From the IMG/VR virus record IMGVR_UViG_2778261067_000001: a DNA stretch of 22,642 nucleotides; one strand, given 5' to 3'. Source of the stretch: a virus. Taxonomy: Duplodnaviria > Heunggongvirae > Uroviricota > Caudoviricetes. Made by a program: the position numbers and the translations under genes. Below are positions 4,840-10,721 of this stretch, piece by piece (positions within the stretch are counted from its first letter, which is position 1; the number at the start of each line of letters is the position of its first letter). Below the pieces are notes generated by a model. It saw only the letters and a list, made by a program, of their open reading frames with translations. It did no database searches and was not told the origin of the DNA.

Positions 4840-5169
4840 CTATGCCACGACCTGTTCAAAATCTGCCGTTATGGTTACCCACAGCGCCCCCACGCTTGCC
4901 GACCATTTACGACAAACCACCCTGATCGGTTTCCAGTCATAAGGTGGCGTCCACTGAAATGCACGGACGCCACCGTGCCGTTCCAGAAAGGCTTTTAAAG
5001 ATGGGTGTTCACATTTACGAACACGTATCGTCACGCTGTAAGTCGACAACTGGTTATTCAGTCCCGCCGCACGACGCTGTTCATAACCATCGCCCAGCTT
5101 CACTGTCACCACTTTCGGCTCTGATACCACATTCATATCCGGGCGCACTTTCCAGTGAAACGTCTCCAT
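4840..5169 (-). CDS. M: Minor tail protein M
   Basis: 109-aa ORF METFHWKVRPDMNVVSEPKVV...FEQVVA, lambda gpM-like; ATG overlaps the stop of H by 1 nt. Confidence 0.9.
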   Translation of the reverse strand: METFHWKVRPDMNVVSEPKVVTVKLGDGYEQRRAAGLNNQLSTYSVTIRVRKCEHPSLKAFLERHGGVRAFQWTPPYDWKPIRVVCRKWSASVGALWVTITADFEQVVA

Positions 5170-8100
5170 TACCGATATGCTCCACTTAACCGACCACCAT
5201 CACGGGCCTGCTGTTGCATAAAGTCCGCTGCCGCTTTTTTCCCGAGGTCATAAACCGCCTTCAGGGCAGCCGGACCTATCTGCCCGTTCGTGCCATCGTT
5301 ATTGATCTCGATGTTGTACTGCGGGGAAAACATCGCCATACCTGAACCCCCAATATCCGCCACAACCCCCAGCTTACCGTCAGCACCACGACGCAATGGC
5401 AGAATGGCTTCAGGTCCCGCTTCCCCCATCACACCCGCGCCTTTTGCAAAAGCAAAAAACGTCGGACGGTTAACCACCGTGCCACTGTAACGACTCAAAT
5501 CAGCAGACTGATAAATCCCCCCATTGGCATTCAGGGAAAGGCTGCTGAGATCAAATCCCAGTACACTGCCAATCCCTTTTATCGATTTCATCATGGTTGC
5601 CTGCGCCAGGATTTTCGCCATATCTGACAGCACAGAAGAGGTGAAGGATTTGAAATTGAGTTTGCCGGTAGTGACAAAAGTTGCCAGGCCATTTCCCATG
5701 TTGCTGAAGGCTGACGAGAACACCTGTTCTGCTGTTTCTGCCGTATTATCTGCATCCACGGTAAAATCCTGAAATGCACGCAGGACTCCGTTTTTCCAGT
5801 TACCCTGCACAACTTCAAGCTGTTGCCAGTAACGGCGATTCTCATTCAGTTGTCGGTTCAGGCTCTCCGTCAGCGCCTGCTCGGCCTTTCTGTAGTCATC
5901 CGTGTTATATGTCCCTTTCTGCTCACTATCCCGCCTCAACTGCTCCAGCTGTTGCTGGTATTTCTGGCGAAGACTCAGTTGTACCTGATATCGCTGTCGC
6001 TGCTGATCACCCATACCCACCGTGGCGATATCCAGGTCATGTTGCTGACGCTGAGCGCGCTCTTCTTCAGCCAGTTGACTGGTCAGCTGAATTGTTTTTT
6101 TCTTCAGCTCGTTGAGTGCCGTCTGTTTCTGAAGCTCCTGCTGTTTTACATCCAGCAGCGTCAGTGCCTGAATCAGTTCATCTTTACGGGCCAGCACACT
6201 CTTTTCATCTGCCGTCAGTTTTTTCCCGTCCAGGTCGCTGATGCGCTGCTGCAGAGCCAGAAGCTGTTTATGCGCTTCTGTCATCCTTTCCGTGGCAATG
6301 CCTGCTGACTGTCTGGCAGCAGAAATCTGTCCTTCCACCTGTGCCTGTTGCTGACTGTACTGCAGCAATAACCGGGTGGCCTCATCATTACGGGTTTCGC
6401 GTGTTTTTTTCTTACCGGATGCCAGGGCTTTCTCGTAACGTTCATTTTCACGTTGTATCGCCGCATCCCTGACAGCCTGATCGGCGTACTGCATGGCATT
6501 AATACGTGCAATTTCACGCTGATGTCGTGCAGCTTCCGTTTCATTCATACGGTTCAGTGCAGCATTTTCAGCATTACGGCGTTTCTGTTGCTCCTGATAA
6601 TTCCGCTCTGCCTGCTCTTTTGCATCCTGCAAATCCTTCTGGCGTTTTTTCTCCTGAAGATCGTTAAGACGCTGCTGATCGTATTCAACCTGAGAAGATG
6701 ATGCCGTCCAGGGGAGTCTTTTCGCCCGCGACACTTTCTCCTGCAAAGTGGCAATCTGCGCATCCAGCGAATCTTCACGACCAATATTCATGGCCGCATC
6801 CCAGAACTGCTTCCACCAGTCAGACAAAGTTTGCAGCGTACTGCCCAGCGCATTGAGGTTATTATCAATATCCGCAGTACGCCGACCGGTTTCCTCTGCC
6901 AGTGCAGACATGGCTATCCGTGCCGCATCACTGGACCGCCCCTGCTCTCCAAGGACGCGTATCTGCTCAAGCTGAGTGGCAGTAAGAAAATGCAGCTCAT
7001 TGTCCAGAGACTTCGCGGCATTTACAGGATCATCCTTCAGCCGCTTAAACTGATTTATGGTATCGCTGACCGACTGGCCAACCGATCGCTCCATCTGTGC
7101 GGCAGCTCTCGCCACCATACCGATATCGTTTCCACGAAATGCACCACTCCCCACCACCTGAGCCAGCGCACCGGCTGCAGCATGTTGCGTGATACCATTC
7201 CCGGAAATAGCACGACTGAGCGTCCACAGCTGCCCGGCAGTGACTCCGGCATAATGCCCCGTCAGCGACAGCTGGCGGTTAAATTCTTCCCCCTCCTTCT
7301 GACCGTCATACCAGGCTTTACCCAGACCATAGACGGCCGCGGTAATACCGCCAATAACCCCGCCCAGCATCATGCCTTTCGGTGACATCAGTGTGTCTAT
7401 CCATCCGGCACGGTTAGCCAGCGTTATCCCGGATCCCCTCAGCGCCCCTAAATTGCCGCGGGCCAGTTCACCTATCAGAACGCCTATCTCCTGGCGGGCC
7501 GCTGCACTTTTCAGACCCAGCGAATGCGTGGCTTTTCCTGCCCGCTCCATTTTGCGGATATACACTTCTGCAGCACTGCTTACCCCCAGCTGGGCAGCCC
7601 TGGCACGAAGCAACTCAGAAGAAGAAAGATTCTGGCGGGTTGCCTGCTCTTTAAGCTGACGGATAAACGCCACTTTCTGTCGGGTAGCCTCTGCCTCAGC
7701 CTGCGTAAGAACACGGGTTTTCGCCGTAACCTCAGAAATCAGCGCCAGATAATCCTGCTGACCAATCCCGCCACTGTTTCTGGCCTGTCGGATCTGCTGC
7801 TGAATACGCTGTAATTCCTGCAGCCCCGCACTGGCCTGTTTCACACTGTCAATCTGACGATAAAACGCAGCAGCCGCTTTATCCTGAGCCTCCGCCAGAG
7901 CCATGGCCTGCGCCTGTTCCTCGCGCATTTTCTGGCTCAGTGCCTCCATGCGCTGGCGGGTTTTCTCCACCTCGCGGGCCATGCGTTCATGAGCCTGTGC
8001 GTTCTTCTCCACCGTCTGCGCATGGACGGATGCGGCTGTTGCAGCCGAAGAAGCTGCCTGCGTTGTCTGCCGGGCGGCCTGAGTCTGACGCTCCATAAAA

Positions 8101-8234
8101 CGCTGCATACGGGCAGAAGACCGTTCTGCATCGCTGGCTGCACCATTCAGAAGGTTTTTGATACGGGGAATTTCATTTTTAAACTCTGCCGCATCAATCC
8201 CCAAATCAATGACCAGGTTGGCTATCTGGTCCAT
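5169..8234 (-). CDS. H: Tail tape measure protein (gpH-like), ~1021 aa from ATG at 8234
   Basis: Long coiled-coil-rich ORF; C-terminus ...IEINNDGTNGQIGPAALKAVYDLGKKAAADFMQQQARDGGRLSGAYR resembles the lambda gpH C-terminus. The track start at 8264 is a TTG; the ATG at 8234 (MDQIANLVIDLGIDAAEF...) has a GGAGGTG Shine-Dalgarno and aligns with the lambda H N-terminus. Confidence 0.9.
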   Translation of the reverse strand: MDQIANLVIDLGIDAAEFKNEIPRIKNLLNGAASDAERSSARMQRFMERQTQAARQTTQAASSAATAASVHAQTVEKNAQAHERMAREVEKTRQRMEALSQKMREEQAQAMALAEAQDKAAAAFYRQIDSVKQASAGLQELQRIQQQIRQARNSGGIGQQDYLALISEVTAKTRVLTQAEAEATRQKVAFIRQLKEQATRQNLSSSELLRARAAQLGVSSAAEVYIRKMERAGKATHSLGLKSAAARQEIGVLIGELARGNLGALRGSGITLANRAGWIDTLMSPKGMMLGGVIGGITAAVYGLGKAWYDGQKEGEEFNRQLSLTGHYAGVTAGQLWTLSRAISGNGITQHAAAGALAQVVGSGAFRGNDIGMVARAAAQMERSVGQSVSDTINQFKRLKDDPVNAAKSLDNELHFLTATQLEQIRVLGEQGRSSDAARIAMSALAEETGRRTADIDNNLNALGSTLQTLSDWWKQFWDAAMNIGREDSLDAQIATLQEKVSRAKRLPWTASSSQVEYDQQRLNDLQEKKRQKDLQDAKEQAERNYQEQQKRRNAENAALNRMNETEAARHQREIARINAMQYADQAVRDAAIQRENERYEKALASGKKKTRETRNDEATRLLLQYSQQQAQVEGQISAARQSAGIATERMTEAHKQLLALQQRISDLDGKKLTADEKSVLARKDELIQALTLLDVKQQELQKQTALNELKKKTIQLTSQLAEEERAQRQQHDLDIATVGMGDQQRQRYQVQLSLRQKYQQQLEQLRRDSEQKGTYNTDDYRKAEQALTESLNRQLNENRRYWQQLEVVQGNWKNGVLRAFQDFTVDADNTAETAEQVFSSAFSNMGNGLATFVTTGKLNFKSFTSSVLSDMAKILAQATMMKSIKGIGSVLGFDLSSLSLNANGGIYQSADLSRYSGTVVNRPTFFAFAKGAGVMGEAGPEAILPLRRGADGKLGVVADIGGSGMAMFSPQYNIEINNDGTNGQIGPAALKAVYDLGKKAAADFMQQQARDGGRLSGAYR

Positions 8235-8556
8235 AACGCACACCTCCGGAAATACCTTCCCCAAGATGCATCAGTTCTTCGTCCGTTCGCTCCGGTATCC
8301 CGTTCTCTTCCGGTAAAAGGCTGAAATCAGCCACCGCAGCATCACTGCTGCCGGACACCATTCTCACGATCAATGCCTTCAGCGAGGCAAACTGCGCATC
8401 CATCCACACATCACTGAAGCTCTGCATCCGGAAATAATCGCCCCACTCACCAAGCTCAGTGGCCGACATTTCCGACAGCATCCGCCGCCAGTCTGCCCGC
8501 CGGAACTCCCGGGCAAGCCGCATGACAAACTGCATTTCCCGCGTCAGGACTTTTCC
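8206..8556 (-). CDS. T: gpT portion of the G-T tail assembly chaperone, expressed by -1 programmed frameshift from G
   Basis: The -1 frame relative to G is open from 8568 down to the stop at 8206 (...GKVLTREMQFVMRLAREFRRADWRRMLSEMSATELGEWGDYFRMQSF...); it overlaps the last codons of G, the canonical G/T arrangement in lambda-like phages. Candidate slip site GGAAAAG at 8550-8556. Confidence 0.7.
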   Translation of the reverse strand, partial: GKVLTREMQFVMRLAREFRRADWRRMLSEMSATELGEWGDYFRMQSFSDVWMDAQFASLKALIVRMVSGSSDAAVADFSLLPEENGIPERTDEELMHLGEGISGGVRYGPDSQPGH

Positions 8557-8933
8557 GGCGTCAGCGCCTCATGCTCATCATCCACGGCATTATCAATGGC
8601 CCCCATACCGCTCAGCGACAGAACCATCTCCGCCCCCGCACCCAGGGCATCATACGACCATGTTGTAATAACGGATGCGCAAAGCGTCTCTACATCCTTA
8701 GACTGATCCGCATTCCACAGTGAGCGGGAAACCAGCCAGGCATTGATATCCATCCCCATCCGCAGAAAAGCAATCTGTCGTTCAGCCTCCGGCAGTTCTC
8801 CCTCCCCGGCATCAAACTTTGCCGTTCGCTGCTGAACAAACGTCAGATATTCAATTCTCTGCAGCCCGGACAGCTCACTGAGCACCACGGACTGTTTTTC
8901 ATAATTAAACGTGTCCTGTTTCAGAAACATCAT
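8544..8933 (-). CDS. G: Tail assembly chaperone G
   Basis: ORF MMFLKQDTFNYEKQSVVLSELSGLQRIEYLTFVQQRTAKFDAGE..., lambda gpG-like; ATG pair at 8933/8930 preceded by GGAG; the upstream part of the track ORF (to 8972) overlaps a terminator hairpin. Confidence 0.8.
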   Translation of the reverse strand: MMFLKQDTFNYEKQSVVLSELSGLQRIEYLTFVQQRTAKFDAGEGELPEAERQIAFLRMGMDINAWLVSRSLWNADQSKDVETLCASVITTWSYDALGAGAEMVLSLSGMGAIDNAVDDEHEALTPEKS

Positions 8934-8946
8934 GTTCTCCACCTGC

Positions 8947-8970
8947 AAAAAAGCCCCGCATAACCGGGGC
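8947..8970 (-). terminator. Rho-independent terminator downstream of major tail gene V
   Basis: Minus-strand RNA GCCCCG GUUAUG CGGGGC followed by UUUUUU; perfect 6-bp GC stem. Confidence 0.65.
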
Positions 8971-8990
8971 AAATGATGAGTATCGTCCTG

Positions 8991-9734
8991 TTAACCTGCT
9001 GCGCTGACAGTCACCGCAGTCACAGCCACAAAATTCCCGTCAGCGGTCATGCCCACAATGCTGACACTGCCCTGCTTCACGCCTTTTACCGTGGCCACAA
9101 GTCCGTTCAGGGTAACCGTGGCAGTCTGTGGATCTGACGAATGCACACTGATCGCTTTGTCACTGGCTCCGTCAGGTTTTACTGTAAAGGTCAGCGTGGT
9201 GGTTGCTCCCACTTTTACACTGGCAGACGCCGGTGATACTGTCAGCCCGGTAACGCTCACGGTTTCAGTGCCTTCCTCTGCCAGATACGGACGCCCCACA
9301 CCGCTGATTTTCACAGTGCGGGTCATCACGTCTTTTGAGGCAATGGTTTTACCCAGTGAGCTCAGCCAGCCACGGAAAACATCAACAGTGCCGTTGGGAT
9401 ATTTGATACGAAACGCGCAGACTTCACCGGAGTCGAACAACTGAACCAGTTTTTTCTGCCCGCTGTCACCCGGACGCCAGGCCAGCGTCGCCGAAGTATC
9501 ACCAACGGATTTCTGCCCCTGGGTTGTCGTTTTCCAGTCTGCATCTTCATCATCGAGATAAGTGTCATCTTCTGCATCAGCGGTCATTTCGCCAGGTTGC
9601 AGATCCTTCACCATCGCAAGACGCAGCCAGTCAGTGTCCGACAAAGGGTTCGCAAACGCATCGCCGTTGCCGGTATACATCCAGAACGTCGTCCCCGCAC
9701 CTTTCGTCTTTGCCAGTGGATTTGGTGTGGTCAT
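8991..9734 (-). CDS. V: Major tail protein V with C-terminal Ig-like (Big_2-type) domain
   Basis: ATG at 9734 preceded by AAGGAGGT; MTTPNPLAKTKGAGTTFWMYTGNGDAFANPLSDTDWLRLAMVKDL...YLDDEDADW...NGTVDVFRGW resembles lambda gpV; C-terminal ~90 aa are Thr/Val/Ser-rich beta-strand sequence typical of Ig-like decoration domains. Confidence 0.9.
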   Translation of the reverse strand: MTTPNPLAKTKGAGTTFWMYTGNGDAFANPLSDTDWLRLAMVKDLQPGEMTADAEDDTYLDDEDADWKTTTQGQKSVGDTSATLAWRPGDSGQKKLVQLFDSGEVCAFRIKYPNGTVDVFRGWLSSLGKTIASKDVMTRTVKISGVGRPYLAEEGTETVSVTGLTVSPASASVKVGATTTLTFTVKPDGASDKAISVHSSDPQTATVTLNGLVATVKGVKQGSVSIVGMTADGNFVAVTAVTVSAAG

Positions 9735-9744
9735 TACCACCTCC

Positions 9745-10146
9745 TTAATTCGTGTACGTGATCTGGTACGTGATTTCCGCCATCGCCCAGGTGGCCATCT
9801 CATTATCACGTTGATAGTTAAAACCGAGTGGGATCAGGGTGTCGATGAGTCCGGAAAGTGCCGGTATATCATTCAGGGCAGGGGAAATGGTGCTCTCCAT
9901 CCACATATCCAGCTCTGAATCCGGTGCCTGTGCCCGGATGAAGACGGCAATATGCAGAACAGCCTGCCAGTCATCTTCATCCGTCATTTTTCCGGTGTAC
10001 TGAGCATCACTCAGCCACACCGCCACGGCAGGCAGTTCCTGCGCATCAATAAATGCCGGAAGCCCGTCAAAAAACGTGGCGCTGTCTCCACACTGTTCCC
10101 GAAGGCGTGCCAGTACGGCCTGGCGGATTTGTGTATGTCGGTTCAT
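9745..10146 (-). CDS. U: Tail terminator protein U
   Basis: MNRHTQIRQAVLARLREQCGDSATFFDGLPAFIDAQELPAVAVWLSDAQYTG... aligns with lambda gpU (…ATFFDGRPAVFDE…FPAVAVYL…); ATG at 10146 overlaps the Z stop (translational coupling). Confidence 0.85.
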   Translation of the reverse strand: MNRHTQIRQAVLARLREQCGDSATFFDGLPAFIDAQELPAVAVWLSDAQYTGKMTDEDDWQAVLHIAVFIRAQAPDSELDMWMESTISPALNDIPALSGLIDTLIPLGFNYQRDNEMATWAMAEITYQITYTN

Positions 10147-10721
10147 CGGGTCAGCCATAACCTCAGTTGTTGTTTCAGTGCATACCCCAGCTGTTTCGGC
10201 ATTTCCGCAGCAATGATGTGGTCGCGGGCATCTTCAAATGCCTGTGTCAGCGGTCCGGACAGCGGGATTTTCACCACATCAATGGGGTAACGATTTTTGC
10301 CATCAATACGTCGCATCACGTGCCAGCGACCATTCGCCAGTTGCTGAATAAACGCATCCCGGAAAAGATATTTACCCACCTTCAGCACACTGCCACGGTA
10401 CTGCAGTTTTCCACCACGCCGGGCCAGTCTGACCCGGGCTGTCCCCAGCTTAATGGCGGGCAGATTGCCCCGGTTAACGCGGATCCTGGCCGTCATTTTT
10501 CCTGACGGACTGGCTTTAAACACCCGGACACGCTGACGTACCAGTTTCAGGGGGATCCCTTTCACCTGGTTATCTCCCGCAACGGTATTCCCGGCAACCT
10601 GCCGGGTGGCAACCGAGACCGCTTTCTGTGCCACACGGTTTATCGCCCATGCGCTGGCCTGTGGCACCATACGGGTATCAAGGCTGTTCAGATTGCGGAT
10701 GGCATTCTCAAGCCCCTTCAT
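10143..10721 (-). CDS. Z: Tail completion protein Z
   Basis: 192-aa ORF MKGLENAIRNLNSL...AFIQQLANGRWHVMRRIDGKNRYPIDVVKIPLSGPL..., lambda gpZ-like. Confidence 0.85.
   Translation of the reverse strand: MKGLENAIRNLNSLDTRMVPQASAWAINRVAQKAVSVATRQVAGNTVAGDNQVKGIPLKLVRQRVRVFKASPSGKMTARIRVNRGNLPAIKLGTARVRLARRGGKLQYRGSVLKVGKYLFRDAFIQQLANGRWHVMRRIDGKNRYPIDVVKIPLSGPLTQAFEDARDHIIAAEMPKQLGYALKQQLRLWLTR

What the first reader, a model, noticed from the sequence alone, without database searches (positions are those of the whole stretch)
8206..8933. G-T programmed -1 frameshift with an atypical candidate slip site
The T reading frame is open only from 8568 downward and overlaps the last ~8 codons of G, so T can only be made as a G-T fusion by a -1 shift, as in lambda (established for lambda). 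The only heptamer available in the overlap is G GAA AAG (8550-8556), not lambda's G GGA AAG; the P-site tRNA would re-pair with a mismatch, so efficiency may differ or the slip may occur on a different motif.
Basis: partly seen in the sequence, partly recalled or inferred. Interest (0 to 1): 0.4.

Follow-up and report, generated by a model that had tools for sequence, protein, structure and literature searches.

The report
Lambda-type tail chaperone G-T frameshift site
This is the ordinary lambda-style programmed -1 frameshift that makes the G-T tail-assembly chaperone of a common E. coli prophage; its GGAAAAG slip site differs from lambda's but is the commonest one in this gene family and is already annotated in phages N15, phi80 and LLS.

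Summary
On the minus strand, gene G (8930/8933..8544) ends ...ACG CCG GAA AAG TCC TGA. The -1 frame, which carries the Pfam T domain, is closed by TGA at 8571-8569 and open from 8568 to 8206. The only in-phase slip motif in the 25-nt overlap is G GAA AAG (8556..8550).

The reading as a lambda-like G-T -1 frameshift is strongly supported by comparison, though not by experiment. In 36 clusters of homologous loci, T is always in the -1 frame and the slip-site Lys is invariant. T-frame conservation starts right after that Lys, and the annotated ATG 8535 is neither conserved nor preceded by a usable ribosome-binding site.

"Atypical" holds only against lambda and the X XXY YYZ rule. GGAAAAG is used by 28 of the 36 clusters, and GenBank records for N15, phi80 and LLS already mark it as the slippery sequence. 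Heptamer base 1, a synonymous third position, never changed, while neighbouring third positions changed at least 9-13 times. That favours a two-tRNA slip in which tRNA-Glu re-pairs on GGA through a G.U pair.

No conserved downstream RNA structure exists. An SD-like GAGG about 10 nt upstream occurs only in some lineages. Verdict: real, ordinary, essentially already known. The practical point is that G-T is left unjoined in this clade's records.

The parts
8544..8933 (-). Gene G, tail assembly chaperone. Two adjacent ATGs at 8933 and 8930; 8930 is the likelier start (product MFLK..., 128 aa, 14.2 kDa). 0-frame stop TGA at 8546-8544.
   Evidence: Translation. Pfam PF06894 Phage_TAC_2, 3.8e-40. 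Homologues start MFLK. SD AGGUGGAGA lies 5 nt before ATG 8930. Mass.
8550..8556 (-). Slip heptamer G GAA AAG (0 frame: Glu-Lys; -1 frame: GGA AAA).
   Evidence: Sequence. Identical in all 90 fetched copies of the clade and in 28/36 homologue clusters. Zero parsimony changes at all seven bases within those 28 clusters. The same 7 bases are annotated as the slippery sequence in N15, phi80 and LLS.
8569..8571 (-). TGA that closes the -1 (T) frame upstream. It sets the 5' limit of where the shift can occur.
8206..8550 (-). T segment read in the -1 frame after base 8550 is read twice (VLTREMQF...PGH, stop 8208-8206). Predicted G-T = complement join(8930..8550, 8550..8206), 241 aa, 27.1 kDa.
   Evidence: Translation. 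Pfam PF06223 Phage_tail_T, 5.1e-15. PHROG 39 and the full-length PHROG 32165. Alignment of fusion proteins. Mass.
8533..8535 (-). ATG used by GenBank/RefSeq records as the start of a stand-alone T. Probably not a real start.
   Evidence: Annotations. It aligns with Leu in the five relatives. Best anti-SD pairing is -4.3 kcal/mol at zero spacing, against -12.6 for V, -10.8 for H and -6.4 for G.
8565..8570 (-). SD-like GAGGCG (GAGGTG in 55 of 90 clade copies); its GAGG core is followed by a 10-nt spacer before the heptamer. Possible weak stimulator; inferred only.
   Evidence: Duplex energy -5.6 kcal/mol. Variant counts. Present at the same spacing in Gifsy-2 and a few other clusters but absent in the N15/phi80 types.
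8946..8970 (-). Terminator-like hairpin plus T-run between V and G (context).
   Evidence: Annotated as a terminator in the mEp460 and N15 records.
8991..9734 (-). Gene V, major tail tube protein (upstream neighbour).
   Evidence: Pfam Phage_TTP_12, 1.1e-66, plus Big_2. SD AAGGAGGUG before ATG 9734.
5169..8234 (-). Gene H, tape measure protein (downstream neighbour). It overlaps the end of T by 29 nt.
   Evidence: Pfam TMP_2, 4.7e-49, and Tape_meas_lam_C, 4.7e-22. SD CCGGAGGUG before ATG 8234.

Best explanation
This is the G/G-T tail assembly chaperone pair of a cdtI/mEp460-type lambdoid prophage. Most ribosomes translate G to its stop at 8546-8544 and make the 14-kDa chaperone. A small fraction slip back one base on G GAA AAG (8556..8550) and continue in the -1 frame to 8206. 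That yields a 27-kDa G-T fusion with the junction ...ALTPEK|VLTREMQF.... By analogy with lambda, the G part binds the tape measure H and the T part recruits the tube protein V. The most likely slip is a tandem two-tRNA shift. tRNA-Lys moves from AAG to the better-paired AAA. tRNA-Glu moves from GAA to GGA and keeps G:C at codon position 1 and A:U at position 3, with a G.U pair at position 2. Shown here: the gene order, the frames, the position of the site and its evolutionary conservation. Inferred: that the fusion is made, its level, and the tandem rather than single-tRNA route.
For: Pfam identities and the V-G-T-H order. The -1 relation with a short overlap holds in every complete homologous locus. 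In Providencia heimbachae and Edwardsiella the overlap is only 16 nt and holds the heptamer. In the fusion-protein alignment K128 is invariant and T-frame conservation (E133, F136, LARE) starts directly after it; the window's Met134 (the ATG 8535 codon) aligns with Leu. There is no usable SD before ATG 8535. PHROG 32165 matches residues 2-238 of the fusion in one stretch. GGAAAAG is found in 28/36 clusters; AAG is used 28/28 against a 35% background and GAA 28/28 against 57%. Heptamer base 1 is G in 28/28 although its codon is GCG, CCG, CTG, TTG, GTG or ACG; it shows 0 Fitch changes, against at least 9-13 at neighbouring third positions and at least 5 and 4 at the same codon's first two bases. 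GGA and GAA interchanged at least 5 times on the tree. N15, phi80 and LLS records annotate these exact 7 bases as the -1 slippery sequence, with joined CDSs in phi80 and LLS. Mechanistic precedent comes from PEMV G_GAU_UUU: changing it to G_GGU_UUU gave 112% of wild type, and abolishing P-site re-pairing gave 36-40% (PMC4737148). The lambda G:GT ratio is about 30:1, so only a few percent of shifting is needed (PMC5009743).
Against: I found no protein-level evidence for this clade or, in the papers I could read, for any GGAAAAG site. In a reconstituted E. coli system G GAA AAG was the 'less slippery' control and gave mainly 0-frame product (PMC6924986). A_AAG-type tetramers without stimulators are near background in vivo (0.147% against 0.112%; PMC4066793). 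I found no conserved downstream structure, so the level may be well below lambda's. All database records of this clade, including PGAP, call T as a separate gene. Two clusters use G GCA AAA TAG, where P-site re-pairing is poor, so re-pairing is not strictly needed in this family.
Confidence: 0.85

Rival explanations
1. The same G-T fusion is made, but by slippage of tRNA-Lys alone on the A_AAG tetramer (an A-site or P-site single-tRNA shift). tRNA-Glu re-pairing plays no role, and the upstream G and GAA are conserved for other reasons.
For: A_AA.G is by far the most shift-prone tetramer in E. coli, reaching 5.6% with a stimulator (PMC4066793). The relatives with G GCA AAA TAG have almost no P-site re-pairing potential. 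[quoted passage not shown]
Against: Heptamer base 1 is a synonymous third position that never changed in 28 clusters, while flanking third positions changed at least 9-13 times. A tetramer model predicts no constraint there. Tetramers without a stimulator are at background, and no conserved stimulator exists here. In PEMV, removing P-site re-pairing on the analogous G_GAU_UUU cut shifting to 36-40%.
Confidence: 0.25
2. T is an independent 109-aa protein translated from ATG 8535, as annotated in the mEp460, PhiR55_1 and RefSeq/PGAP records. No frameshift is needed.
For: An in-frame ATG exists 11 nt after the G stop, and all records of this clade annotate it.
Against: The ATG aligns with Leu in Gifsy-2, phi80, lambda, CP-1639 and an Stx2a phage, and conserved T-frame residues (V/A-L/F-x-x-E) lie upstream of it. 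Its anti-SD pairing is -4.3 kcal/mol at zero spacing, while V, H and G have real SDs. Ayreon's annotators chose a different ATG. In lambda the T domain works only as part of gpGT (PMC5009743).
Confidence: 0.05
3. The junction is an artefact or a decayed gene: a sequencing error in a canonical GGGAAAG, a frameshift mutation in a once-continuous gene, or RNA polymerase slippage on the A run.
For: None beyond the one-base difference from lambda's heptamer.
Against: All 90 fetched copies of the clade carry the same heptamer, and the region matches in 1847 complete E. coli genomes. The same heptamer occurs in 28 divergent clusters. G has its own conserved stop and the arrangement is the family norm. 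A run of four A is, to my knowledge, far too short for transcriptional slippage.
Confidence: 0.01

Closest known systems
Bacteriophage lambda G / G-T programmed -1 frameshift (Levin, Hendrix and Casjens 1993; Xu, Hendrix and Duda 2004, 2013, 2014, as summarised in PMC5009743)
   Same: Same Pfam families (Phage_TAC_2, Phage_tail_T) and the same V-G-T-H order. T is in the -1 frame with no start of its own. The slip site is near the 3' end of G, in the same phase and at the homologous Lys codon. No conserved downstream structure.
   Different: The heptamer is G GAA AAG rather than G GGA AAG, so the P-site tRNA is tRNA-Glu with a mid-codon G.U instead of fully re-pairing tRNA-Gly. The G stop is 1 codon after the heptamer instead of 5. 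The G proteins are only about 32% identical by tblastn; the predicted G-T fusions are 35% identical.
N15 gp14/gp15, phi80 G/G-T and phage LLS genes 11/12 (GenBank AF064539, FN582354, PQ299149)
   Same: The identical heptamer GGAAAAG in the identical phase, explicitly annotated as the slippery sequence for a -1 translational frameshift.
   Different: A different sub-lineage: the GT proteins are about 39% identical. The preceding codon is GCG or GTG, not CCG. The G stop is 5 codons downstream. There is no SD-like GAGG 10 nt upstream.
Gifsy-2 STM1039 / STM1041.1n 'G+G' frameshift hybrid protein'
   Same: The closest distinct relative (G 56% identical) with an identical junction: ACG CCG GAA AAG TCC TGA, GAGG 10 nt upstream and a stop one codon after the site. 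The record notes the frameshift.
   Different: A Salmonella prophage. T is still entered as a separate partial CDS rather than a join.
G_GAU_UUU slip sites of Pea enation mosaic virus 2 and other umbra-, diantho- and totiviruses
   Same: The same non-canonical architecture, G_GAN_NNZ. The A-site tRNA re-pairs fully, while the P-site GAN codon re-pairs on GGA with only partial pairing. A 0-frame stop lies one codon after the heptamer. Experiments show GGA is roughly equivalent to GGG there (112%).
   Different: Eukaryotic ribosomes, tRNA-Asp and tRNA-Phe, and strong dependence on downstream RNA structures. There is no homology; the resemblance is in mechanism only.
E. coli dnaX A AAA AAG frameshift
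   Same: It uses the weak AAG to AAA re-pairing of the single tRNA-Lys. In the window clade an SD-like GAGG(C/T)G lies at about the dnaX spacing (10-11 nt) upstream.
   Different: dnaX needs a strong downstream hairpin and reaches very high efficiency. Here there is no conserved hairpin, the SD-like element is weak and lineage-specific, and the expected efficiency is low.

Membership tests
Lambda-type tail assembly chaperone G/G-T with conserved -1 frameshift | Two overlapping ORFs placed between the major tail (tube) gene and the tape measure gene | tested here: met
   V at 9734..8991, G at 8930..8544, T frame at 8568..8206 and H at 8234..5169, all on the minus strand.
Lambda-type tail assembly chaperone G/G-T with conserved -1 frameshift | The upstream ORF is a gpG homologue and the downstream frame a gpT homologue | tested here: met
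   PF06894, 3.8e-40, and PF06223, 5.1e-15. PHROG 42, 39 and 32165.
Lambda-type tail assembly chaperone G/G-T with conserved -1 frameshift | The downstream frame is -1 relative to G, overlaps its 3' end and lacks a conserved start codon or RBS of its own | tested here: met
   25-nt overlap, with -1 in all complete homologous loci. ATG 8535 is not conserved and has no usable SD.
Lambda-type tail assembly chaperone G/G-T with conserved -1 frameshift | A conserved slippery sequence in the right phase inside the overlap | tested here: met
   G GAA AAG at 8556..8550. It is in 28/36 clusters, with all seven bases invariant within those 28.
Lambda-type tail assembly chaperone G/G-T with conserved -1 frameshift | A G-T fusion protein is made at a low fixed ratio to G and is required for tail assembly | not testable with these tools
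   Needs a western blot, mass spectrometry or genetics. I found no published data for this clade.
Canonical X_XXY_YYZ tandem-slippage heptamer | The first three bases are identical, so the P-site tRNA re-pairs with at most a wobble mismatch | tested here: not met
   The bases are G-G-A. tRNA-Glu on GGA has a second-position G.U (sequence; stated as unfavourable in PMC6924986).
Canonical X_XXY_YYZ tandem-slippage heptamer | The A-site codon YYZ re-pairs cognately as YYY | tested here: met
   AAG to AAA, read by the single E. coli tRNA-Lys (PMC4066793).
dnaX/IS-type stimulated -1 frameshift | A downstream hairpin or pseudoknot 5-9 nt after the heptamer | tested here: not met
   RNAalifold consensus of -1.28 kcal/mol with 0 covarying pairs over 29 sequences. 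Per-cluster z-scores from -2.4 to +1.9. The window's 97-nt fold has z = -1.96, but it pairs the heptamer itself.
dnaX/IS-type stimulated -1 frameshift | An upstream SD-like element about 10-14 nt before the heptamer | tested here: inconclusive
   GAGGCG or GAGGTG is present in the window clade, and GAGG at the same spacing in Gifsy-2 and a few other clusters. It is absent from the N15/phi80-type clusters.
G_GAN_NNZ non-canonical heptamers (PEMV type) | A P-site GAN codon preceded by G, a fully re-pairing A-site codon, and a 0-frame stop one codon downstream | tested here: met
   G GAA AAG UCC UGA, compared with G_GAU_UUU_UGG_UAG. This is a resemblance in sequence only; function was not tested.

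The most novel reading that the evidence does not exclude
G GAA AAG may be a genuine two-tRNA heptamer in bacteria rather than a poor copy of lambda's site. It may be the dominant and probably ancestral slip site of lambda-family tail chaperones in Enterobacterales, kept by selection on all seven bases, with tRNA-Glu re-pairing on GGA through a mid-codon G.U. If so, a sequence used as the non-slippery control in vitro is a working recoding signal in vivo, motif searches limited to X_XXZ_ZZN miss a whole natural class, and the GAA/GGA choice could be a tuning knob for the G:GT ratio.
Probability: 0.45. Interest if true: 0.35.

Novelty: already known. Interest (0 to 1): 0.18.

Why it matters
There is little new biology here. 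The G-T frameshift is textbook, and this heptamer is already marked in the N15, phi80 and LLS records.

Two modest points remain. First, annotation: this tail module is in about a third of complete E. coli genomes (1847 of 5426). There, and in the mEp460, cdtI, PhiR55_1 and Ayreon records, T is entered as a stand-alone ORF from a non-conserved ATG, and the 241-aa G-T protein is missing.

Second, recoding rules. The family mostly uses a heptamer that breaks the X XXY YYZ rule and that biophysicists use as a low-slippage control, yet every base of it, including a synonymous one, is conserved. Measuring its efficiency against GGGAAAG would show how much P-site mismatch bacterial ribosomes tolerate at a low-level frameshift site.

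Tried and rejected
1. Downstream stimulatory RNA. I ran a single-sequence fold of the window, per-cluster folds against shuffles and RNAalifold on 29 aligned junctions. Nothing is conserved, so I rejected it.

2. An upstream SD-like stimulator as a general feature. It is present in the window clade, Gifsy-2 and a few others but absent in the N15/phi80 types. I kept it only as a lineage-specific possibility.

3. Rfam scan of 8000-9200. It returned only two chance-level hits (E about 0.7) to eukaryotic or archaeal families.

4. Plus-strand ORFs 7989-8324, 8459-8668 and 8571-8723. They have no Pfam family and are treated as antisense noise.

5. Literature. A full-text search for GGAAAAG or 'G GAA AAG' with frameshift found no phage paper, only the Rodnina study. 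A phi80/N15 search found nothing relevant. Xu, Hendrix and Duda 2004 is not held, so I could not check whether it lists or tests this heptamer.

6. Circularity check on the base-1 statistic. No cluster has [A/C/T]GAAAAG, so the 28/28 figure is not produced by the selection.

7. The naive probability of 4.5e-13 for base 1 ignores shared ancestry. I therefore replaced it with Fitch counts on a neighbour-joining tree.
Full report
**What is there.** The window is the late (morphogenesis) region of a cdtI/mEp460-type lambdoid E. coli phage. The 851-nt G-T region is 100% identical to phage PhiR55_1 and 97.6-99.9% identical to mEp460, Tritos, cdtI, Ayreon and the other matching phage records. The whole window aligns at 95-98% to these phages over 75-81% of its length.

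The genes lie on the minus strand:
- V, the tube protein, at 9734..8991.
- A terminator-like hairpin at 8970..8946.
- G at 8930/8933..8544.
- The T frame at 8568..8206.
- H, the tape measure, at 8234..5169.

Pfam confirms V (Phage_TTP_12, 1.1e-66), G (Phage_TAC_2, 3.8e-40), T (Phage_tail_T, 5.1e-15) and H (TMP_2, 4.7e-49).

**The observation.** G ends GAG GCG CTG ACG CCG GAA AAG TCC TGA. The -1 frame has a TGA at 8571-8569 and is open from 8568, so it overlaps G by 25 nt. The only in-phase slip motif in that overlap is G GAA AAG at 8556..8550.

**Is T made by frameshifting?** I collected homologous loci from annotated phages, from one genome per bacterial species and from viral contigs. Several lines of evidence agree:
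- In every complete locus the T frame is -1 relative to G, with an overlap of 16 to 163 nt.
- In Providencia heimbachae (ACT GAA TCA CTG GAA AAG TAG) and Edwardsiella anguillarum (CAT GAT GCG GGA AAG TTT TAG) the overlap is only 16 nt. That leaves essentially the heptamer as the only place to shift.
- I spliced the fusion proteins at the heptamer and aligned them. The slip-site Lys (K128) is invariant and T-frame conservation begins immediately after it (V/A-L/F-x-x-E-h-x-F-x-x-x-LARE). The window's Met134 (the ATG 8535 codon), which the database records use as the T start, aligns with Leu in all five relatives.
- ATG 8535 has no usable Shine-Dalgarno: -4.3 kcal/mol at zero spacing. V scores -12.6, H -10.8 and G -6.4, all with normal spacing.
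- PHROG 32165, a family of full-length fusion-type proteins, matches residues 2-238 of the predicted 241/242-aa product in a single stretch.

The predicted products are G at 14.2 kDa and G-T at 27.1 kDa, with the junction ...ALTPEK|VLTREMQF. None of this is protein-level proof. It is the same kind of evidence on which the family-wide frameshift is accepted.

**Is the heptamer atypical?** It is atypical only against lambda and the X XXY YYZ rule. I clustered the GT proteins at 90% identity, which gave 36 clusters:

| Heptamer | Clusters | Examples |
|---|---|---|
| GGAAAAG | 28 | see the list below |
| GGGAAAG | 4 | lambda, Stx phages, Serratia/Symbiopectobacterium, Edwardsiella |
| GGCAAAA | 2 | Kluyvera genomosp. 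1, Ewingella |
| GGGAAAA | 1 | Providencia rustigianii |
| AAAAAAG | 1 | CP-1639 |

The GGAAAAG clusters come from prophages of Escherichia, Salmonella (Gifsy-2), Citrobacter, Kosakonia, Leclercia, Kluyvera, Atlantibacter, Klebsiella, Enterobacter, Trabulsiella, Phytobacter, Pluralibacter, Providencia, Sodalis and Symbiopectobacterium, plus phi80 and N15.

Public records already mark exactly these seven bases. N15 AF064539 has a misc_feature at 10027-10033, 'slippery sequence for -1 translational frameshift'. phi80 FN582354 marks 10194-10200 and has a joined gpG-T CDS. Phage LLS PQ299149 reads 'minus-one programmed translational frameshift site GGAAAAG' and also has a joined CDS. Gifsy-2, whose junction is identical to the window's, is annotated as a 'G+G' frameshift hybrid'. 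The variant is therefore known. What is missing is the join in this clade's own records (mEp460, PhiR55_1, Ayreon) and in RefSeq/PGAP, although the module is present in 1847 of 5426 complete E. coli genomes.

**How it probably works.**
- *The A-site half is classical.* The single E. coli tRNA-Lys pairs better with AAA than with AAG, and A_AA.G is the most shift-prone tetramer (PMC4066793). At the site, AAG is used in 28/28 clusters against 35% elsewhere in the same genes, and GAA in 28/28 against 57%.
- *The P-site half is the interesting part.* tRNA-Glu would move from GAA to GGA. That keeps position 1 (G:C) and position 3 (A:U) and puts a G.U pair at position 2.
- *Comparative data argue that this re-pairing matters.* Heptamer base 1 is the synonymous third base of the preceding codon, which is GCG (12), CCG (8), CTG (5), TTG, GTG or ACG, and it is G in 28/28. 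The background G3 for these amino acids is 25-53%.
- *The signal survives a tree-based test.* On a neighbour-joining tree of the GT proteins, base 1 shows 0 Fitch changes. The third positions of the four preceding codons show at least 10, 10, 13 and 9 changes. The first two bases of the same codon show at least 5 and 4.
- *The two heptamers look interchangeable.* Heptamer base 3 (A in GAA, G in GGA, C in GCA) changed at least 5 times over the 36 clusters, which suggests the two sites are functionally equivalent.
- *This matches experiments on the analogous plant-virus site.* For G_GAU_UUU, changing it to G_GGU_UUU gave 112% of wild type, and blocking P-site re-pairing gave 36-40% (PMC4737148). 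That site also has a 0-frame stop one codon downstream that matters (PMC5009743), as G GAA AAG UCC UGA has here.

**Caveats on mechanism and level.** In a reconstituted E. coli system G GAA AAG was chosen as the 'unfavourable / less slippery' sequence and gave mainly 0-frame peptide (PMC6924986). Tetramers without stimulators are at background in vivo. I found no conserved downstream structure: RNAalifold gave -1.28 kcal/mol with no covarying pair, and per-cluster z-scores centre on zero.

An SD-like GAGGCG lies upstream of the heptamer at roughly the dnaX spacing (a 10-nt spacer follows its GAGG core); it is GAGGTG in 55 of 90 clade copies. It recurs in Gifsy-2 and a few other clusters but is missing from the N15/phi80-type clusters, so at most it is a lineage-specific helper.

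The two G GCA AAA TAG clusters show that the family can do without good P-site re-pairing when a stop follows directly. A single-tRNA slip therefore remains a live alternative, which I put at about 0.25. It would give the same protein. Because lambda needs only about one G-T per 30 G, even a weak site could suffice.

**Other rivals.** An independent T from ATG 8535 is unlikely (about 0.05) for the reasons given above. A sequencing error, pseudogenisation or transcriptional slippage is excluded for practical purposes, because the site is identical in every fetched copy of the clade, the region is widespread in complete E. coli genomes, the site is conserved in divergent lineages, and the A run is only four bases long.

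**Verdict.** This is a real, correctly located and correctly interpreted lambda-type G-T frameshift. The 'atypical' heptamer is the family's commonest and is already annotated elsewhere, so the finding is ordinary and essentially known. The residual value is twofold: an annotation correction (join 8930..8550 with 8550..8206) and a clean natural test case for how much P-site mismatch a low-level bacterial -1 site tolerates.

**Basis of statements from memory.** These are not from a tool: the anticodon of E. coli tRNA-Glu (mnm5s2U-U-C), the 10-14 nt optimum for SD stimulation of -1 shifts (Larsen et al. 1994), and that four A's are too few for RNA polymerase slippage.

Noticed in passing
L052-L064 and L073-L076 (genome-contig hits): G-T loci whose junction region is base-for-base lambda's sit on short contigs (several with coverage near 1 in the contig name) in assemblies of unrelated taxa: Pseudomonas, Kitasatospora, Oceanobacillus, Neobacillus, Shewanella, Leeuwenhoekiella, Chromatium, Pseudoxanthomonas, Paenibacillus and Enterococcus. 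This is almost certainly lambda DNA contamination of those assemblies.
   Followed up: no
L012, L017, L043: Enterobacterial prophage G-T loci appear in MAGs labelled Bacillota, Proteobacteria (soil) and Geobacteraceae. L012 and L017 are copies of the window's own clade. Probably mis-binned or contaminant contigs.
   Followed up: no
window 8930-8933 (minus strand): G has two adjacent ATGs. Homologues begin MFLK with a single Met, and the SD AGGUGGAGA is 5 nt from ATG 8930 but only 2 nt from ATG 8933. PhiR55_1 and PGAP use the equivalent of 8930.
   Followed up: partly
window 8946-8970 (minus strand): A G+C-rich hairpin (GCCCCGGTTATGCGGGGC) followed by T6 lies in the V-G intergenic space and looks like an intrinsic terminator. 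The same place is annotated as a terminator in mEp460 and N15. It may lower G/GT/H transcription relative to the abundant tube protein V.
   Followed up: partly
window 8206-8250 (minus strand): The H start (ATG 8234) and its strong SD GGAGGUG are embedded in the codons of T's conserved C-terminal GGVRYG motif. T and H overlap by 29 nt, which suggests translational coupling of H to the rare G-T ribosomes or to an independent entry site.
   Followed up: no
L019, L021, L050, L035, L067: A sub-group of homologues places the 0-frame stop directly after the slip site: G GCA AAA TAG (Kluyvera genomosp. 1, Ewingella), G GGA AAA TAG (Providencia rustigianii) and G GAA AAG TAG (Providencia huashanensis and P. 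heimbachae). The GCA version has almost no P-site re-pairing and uses AAA, not AAG, so it may work by a stop-codon-assisted single-tRNA slip.
   Followed up: partly
all 36 clusters, bases +1 to +21 after the heptamer: The 0-frame stop of G falls only 0, 1 or 5 codons after the heptamer. The stops at +1 (TCC/CCC TGA) and +5 (AGC TGA) appear to come from conserved T-frame Leu codons (CTG followed by A) rather than being placed freely.
   Followed up: no
NZ_CP010171.1 419737-420461 and 1847 of 5426 complete E. coli genomes: RefSeq/PGAP annotates 'phage tail assembly chaperone G' and 'phage tail assembly protein T' as two separate CDSs with no ribosomal slippage. The G-T protein is therefore absent from the protein set of about a third of complete E. 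coli genomes.
   Followed up: partly
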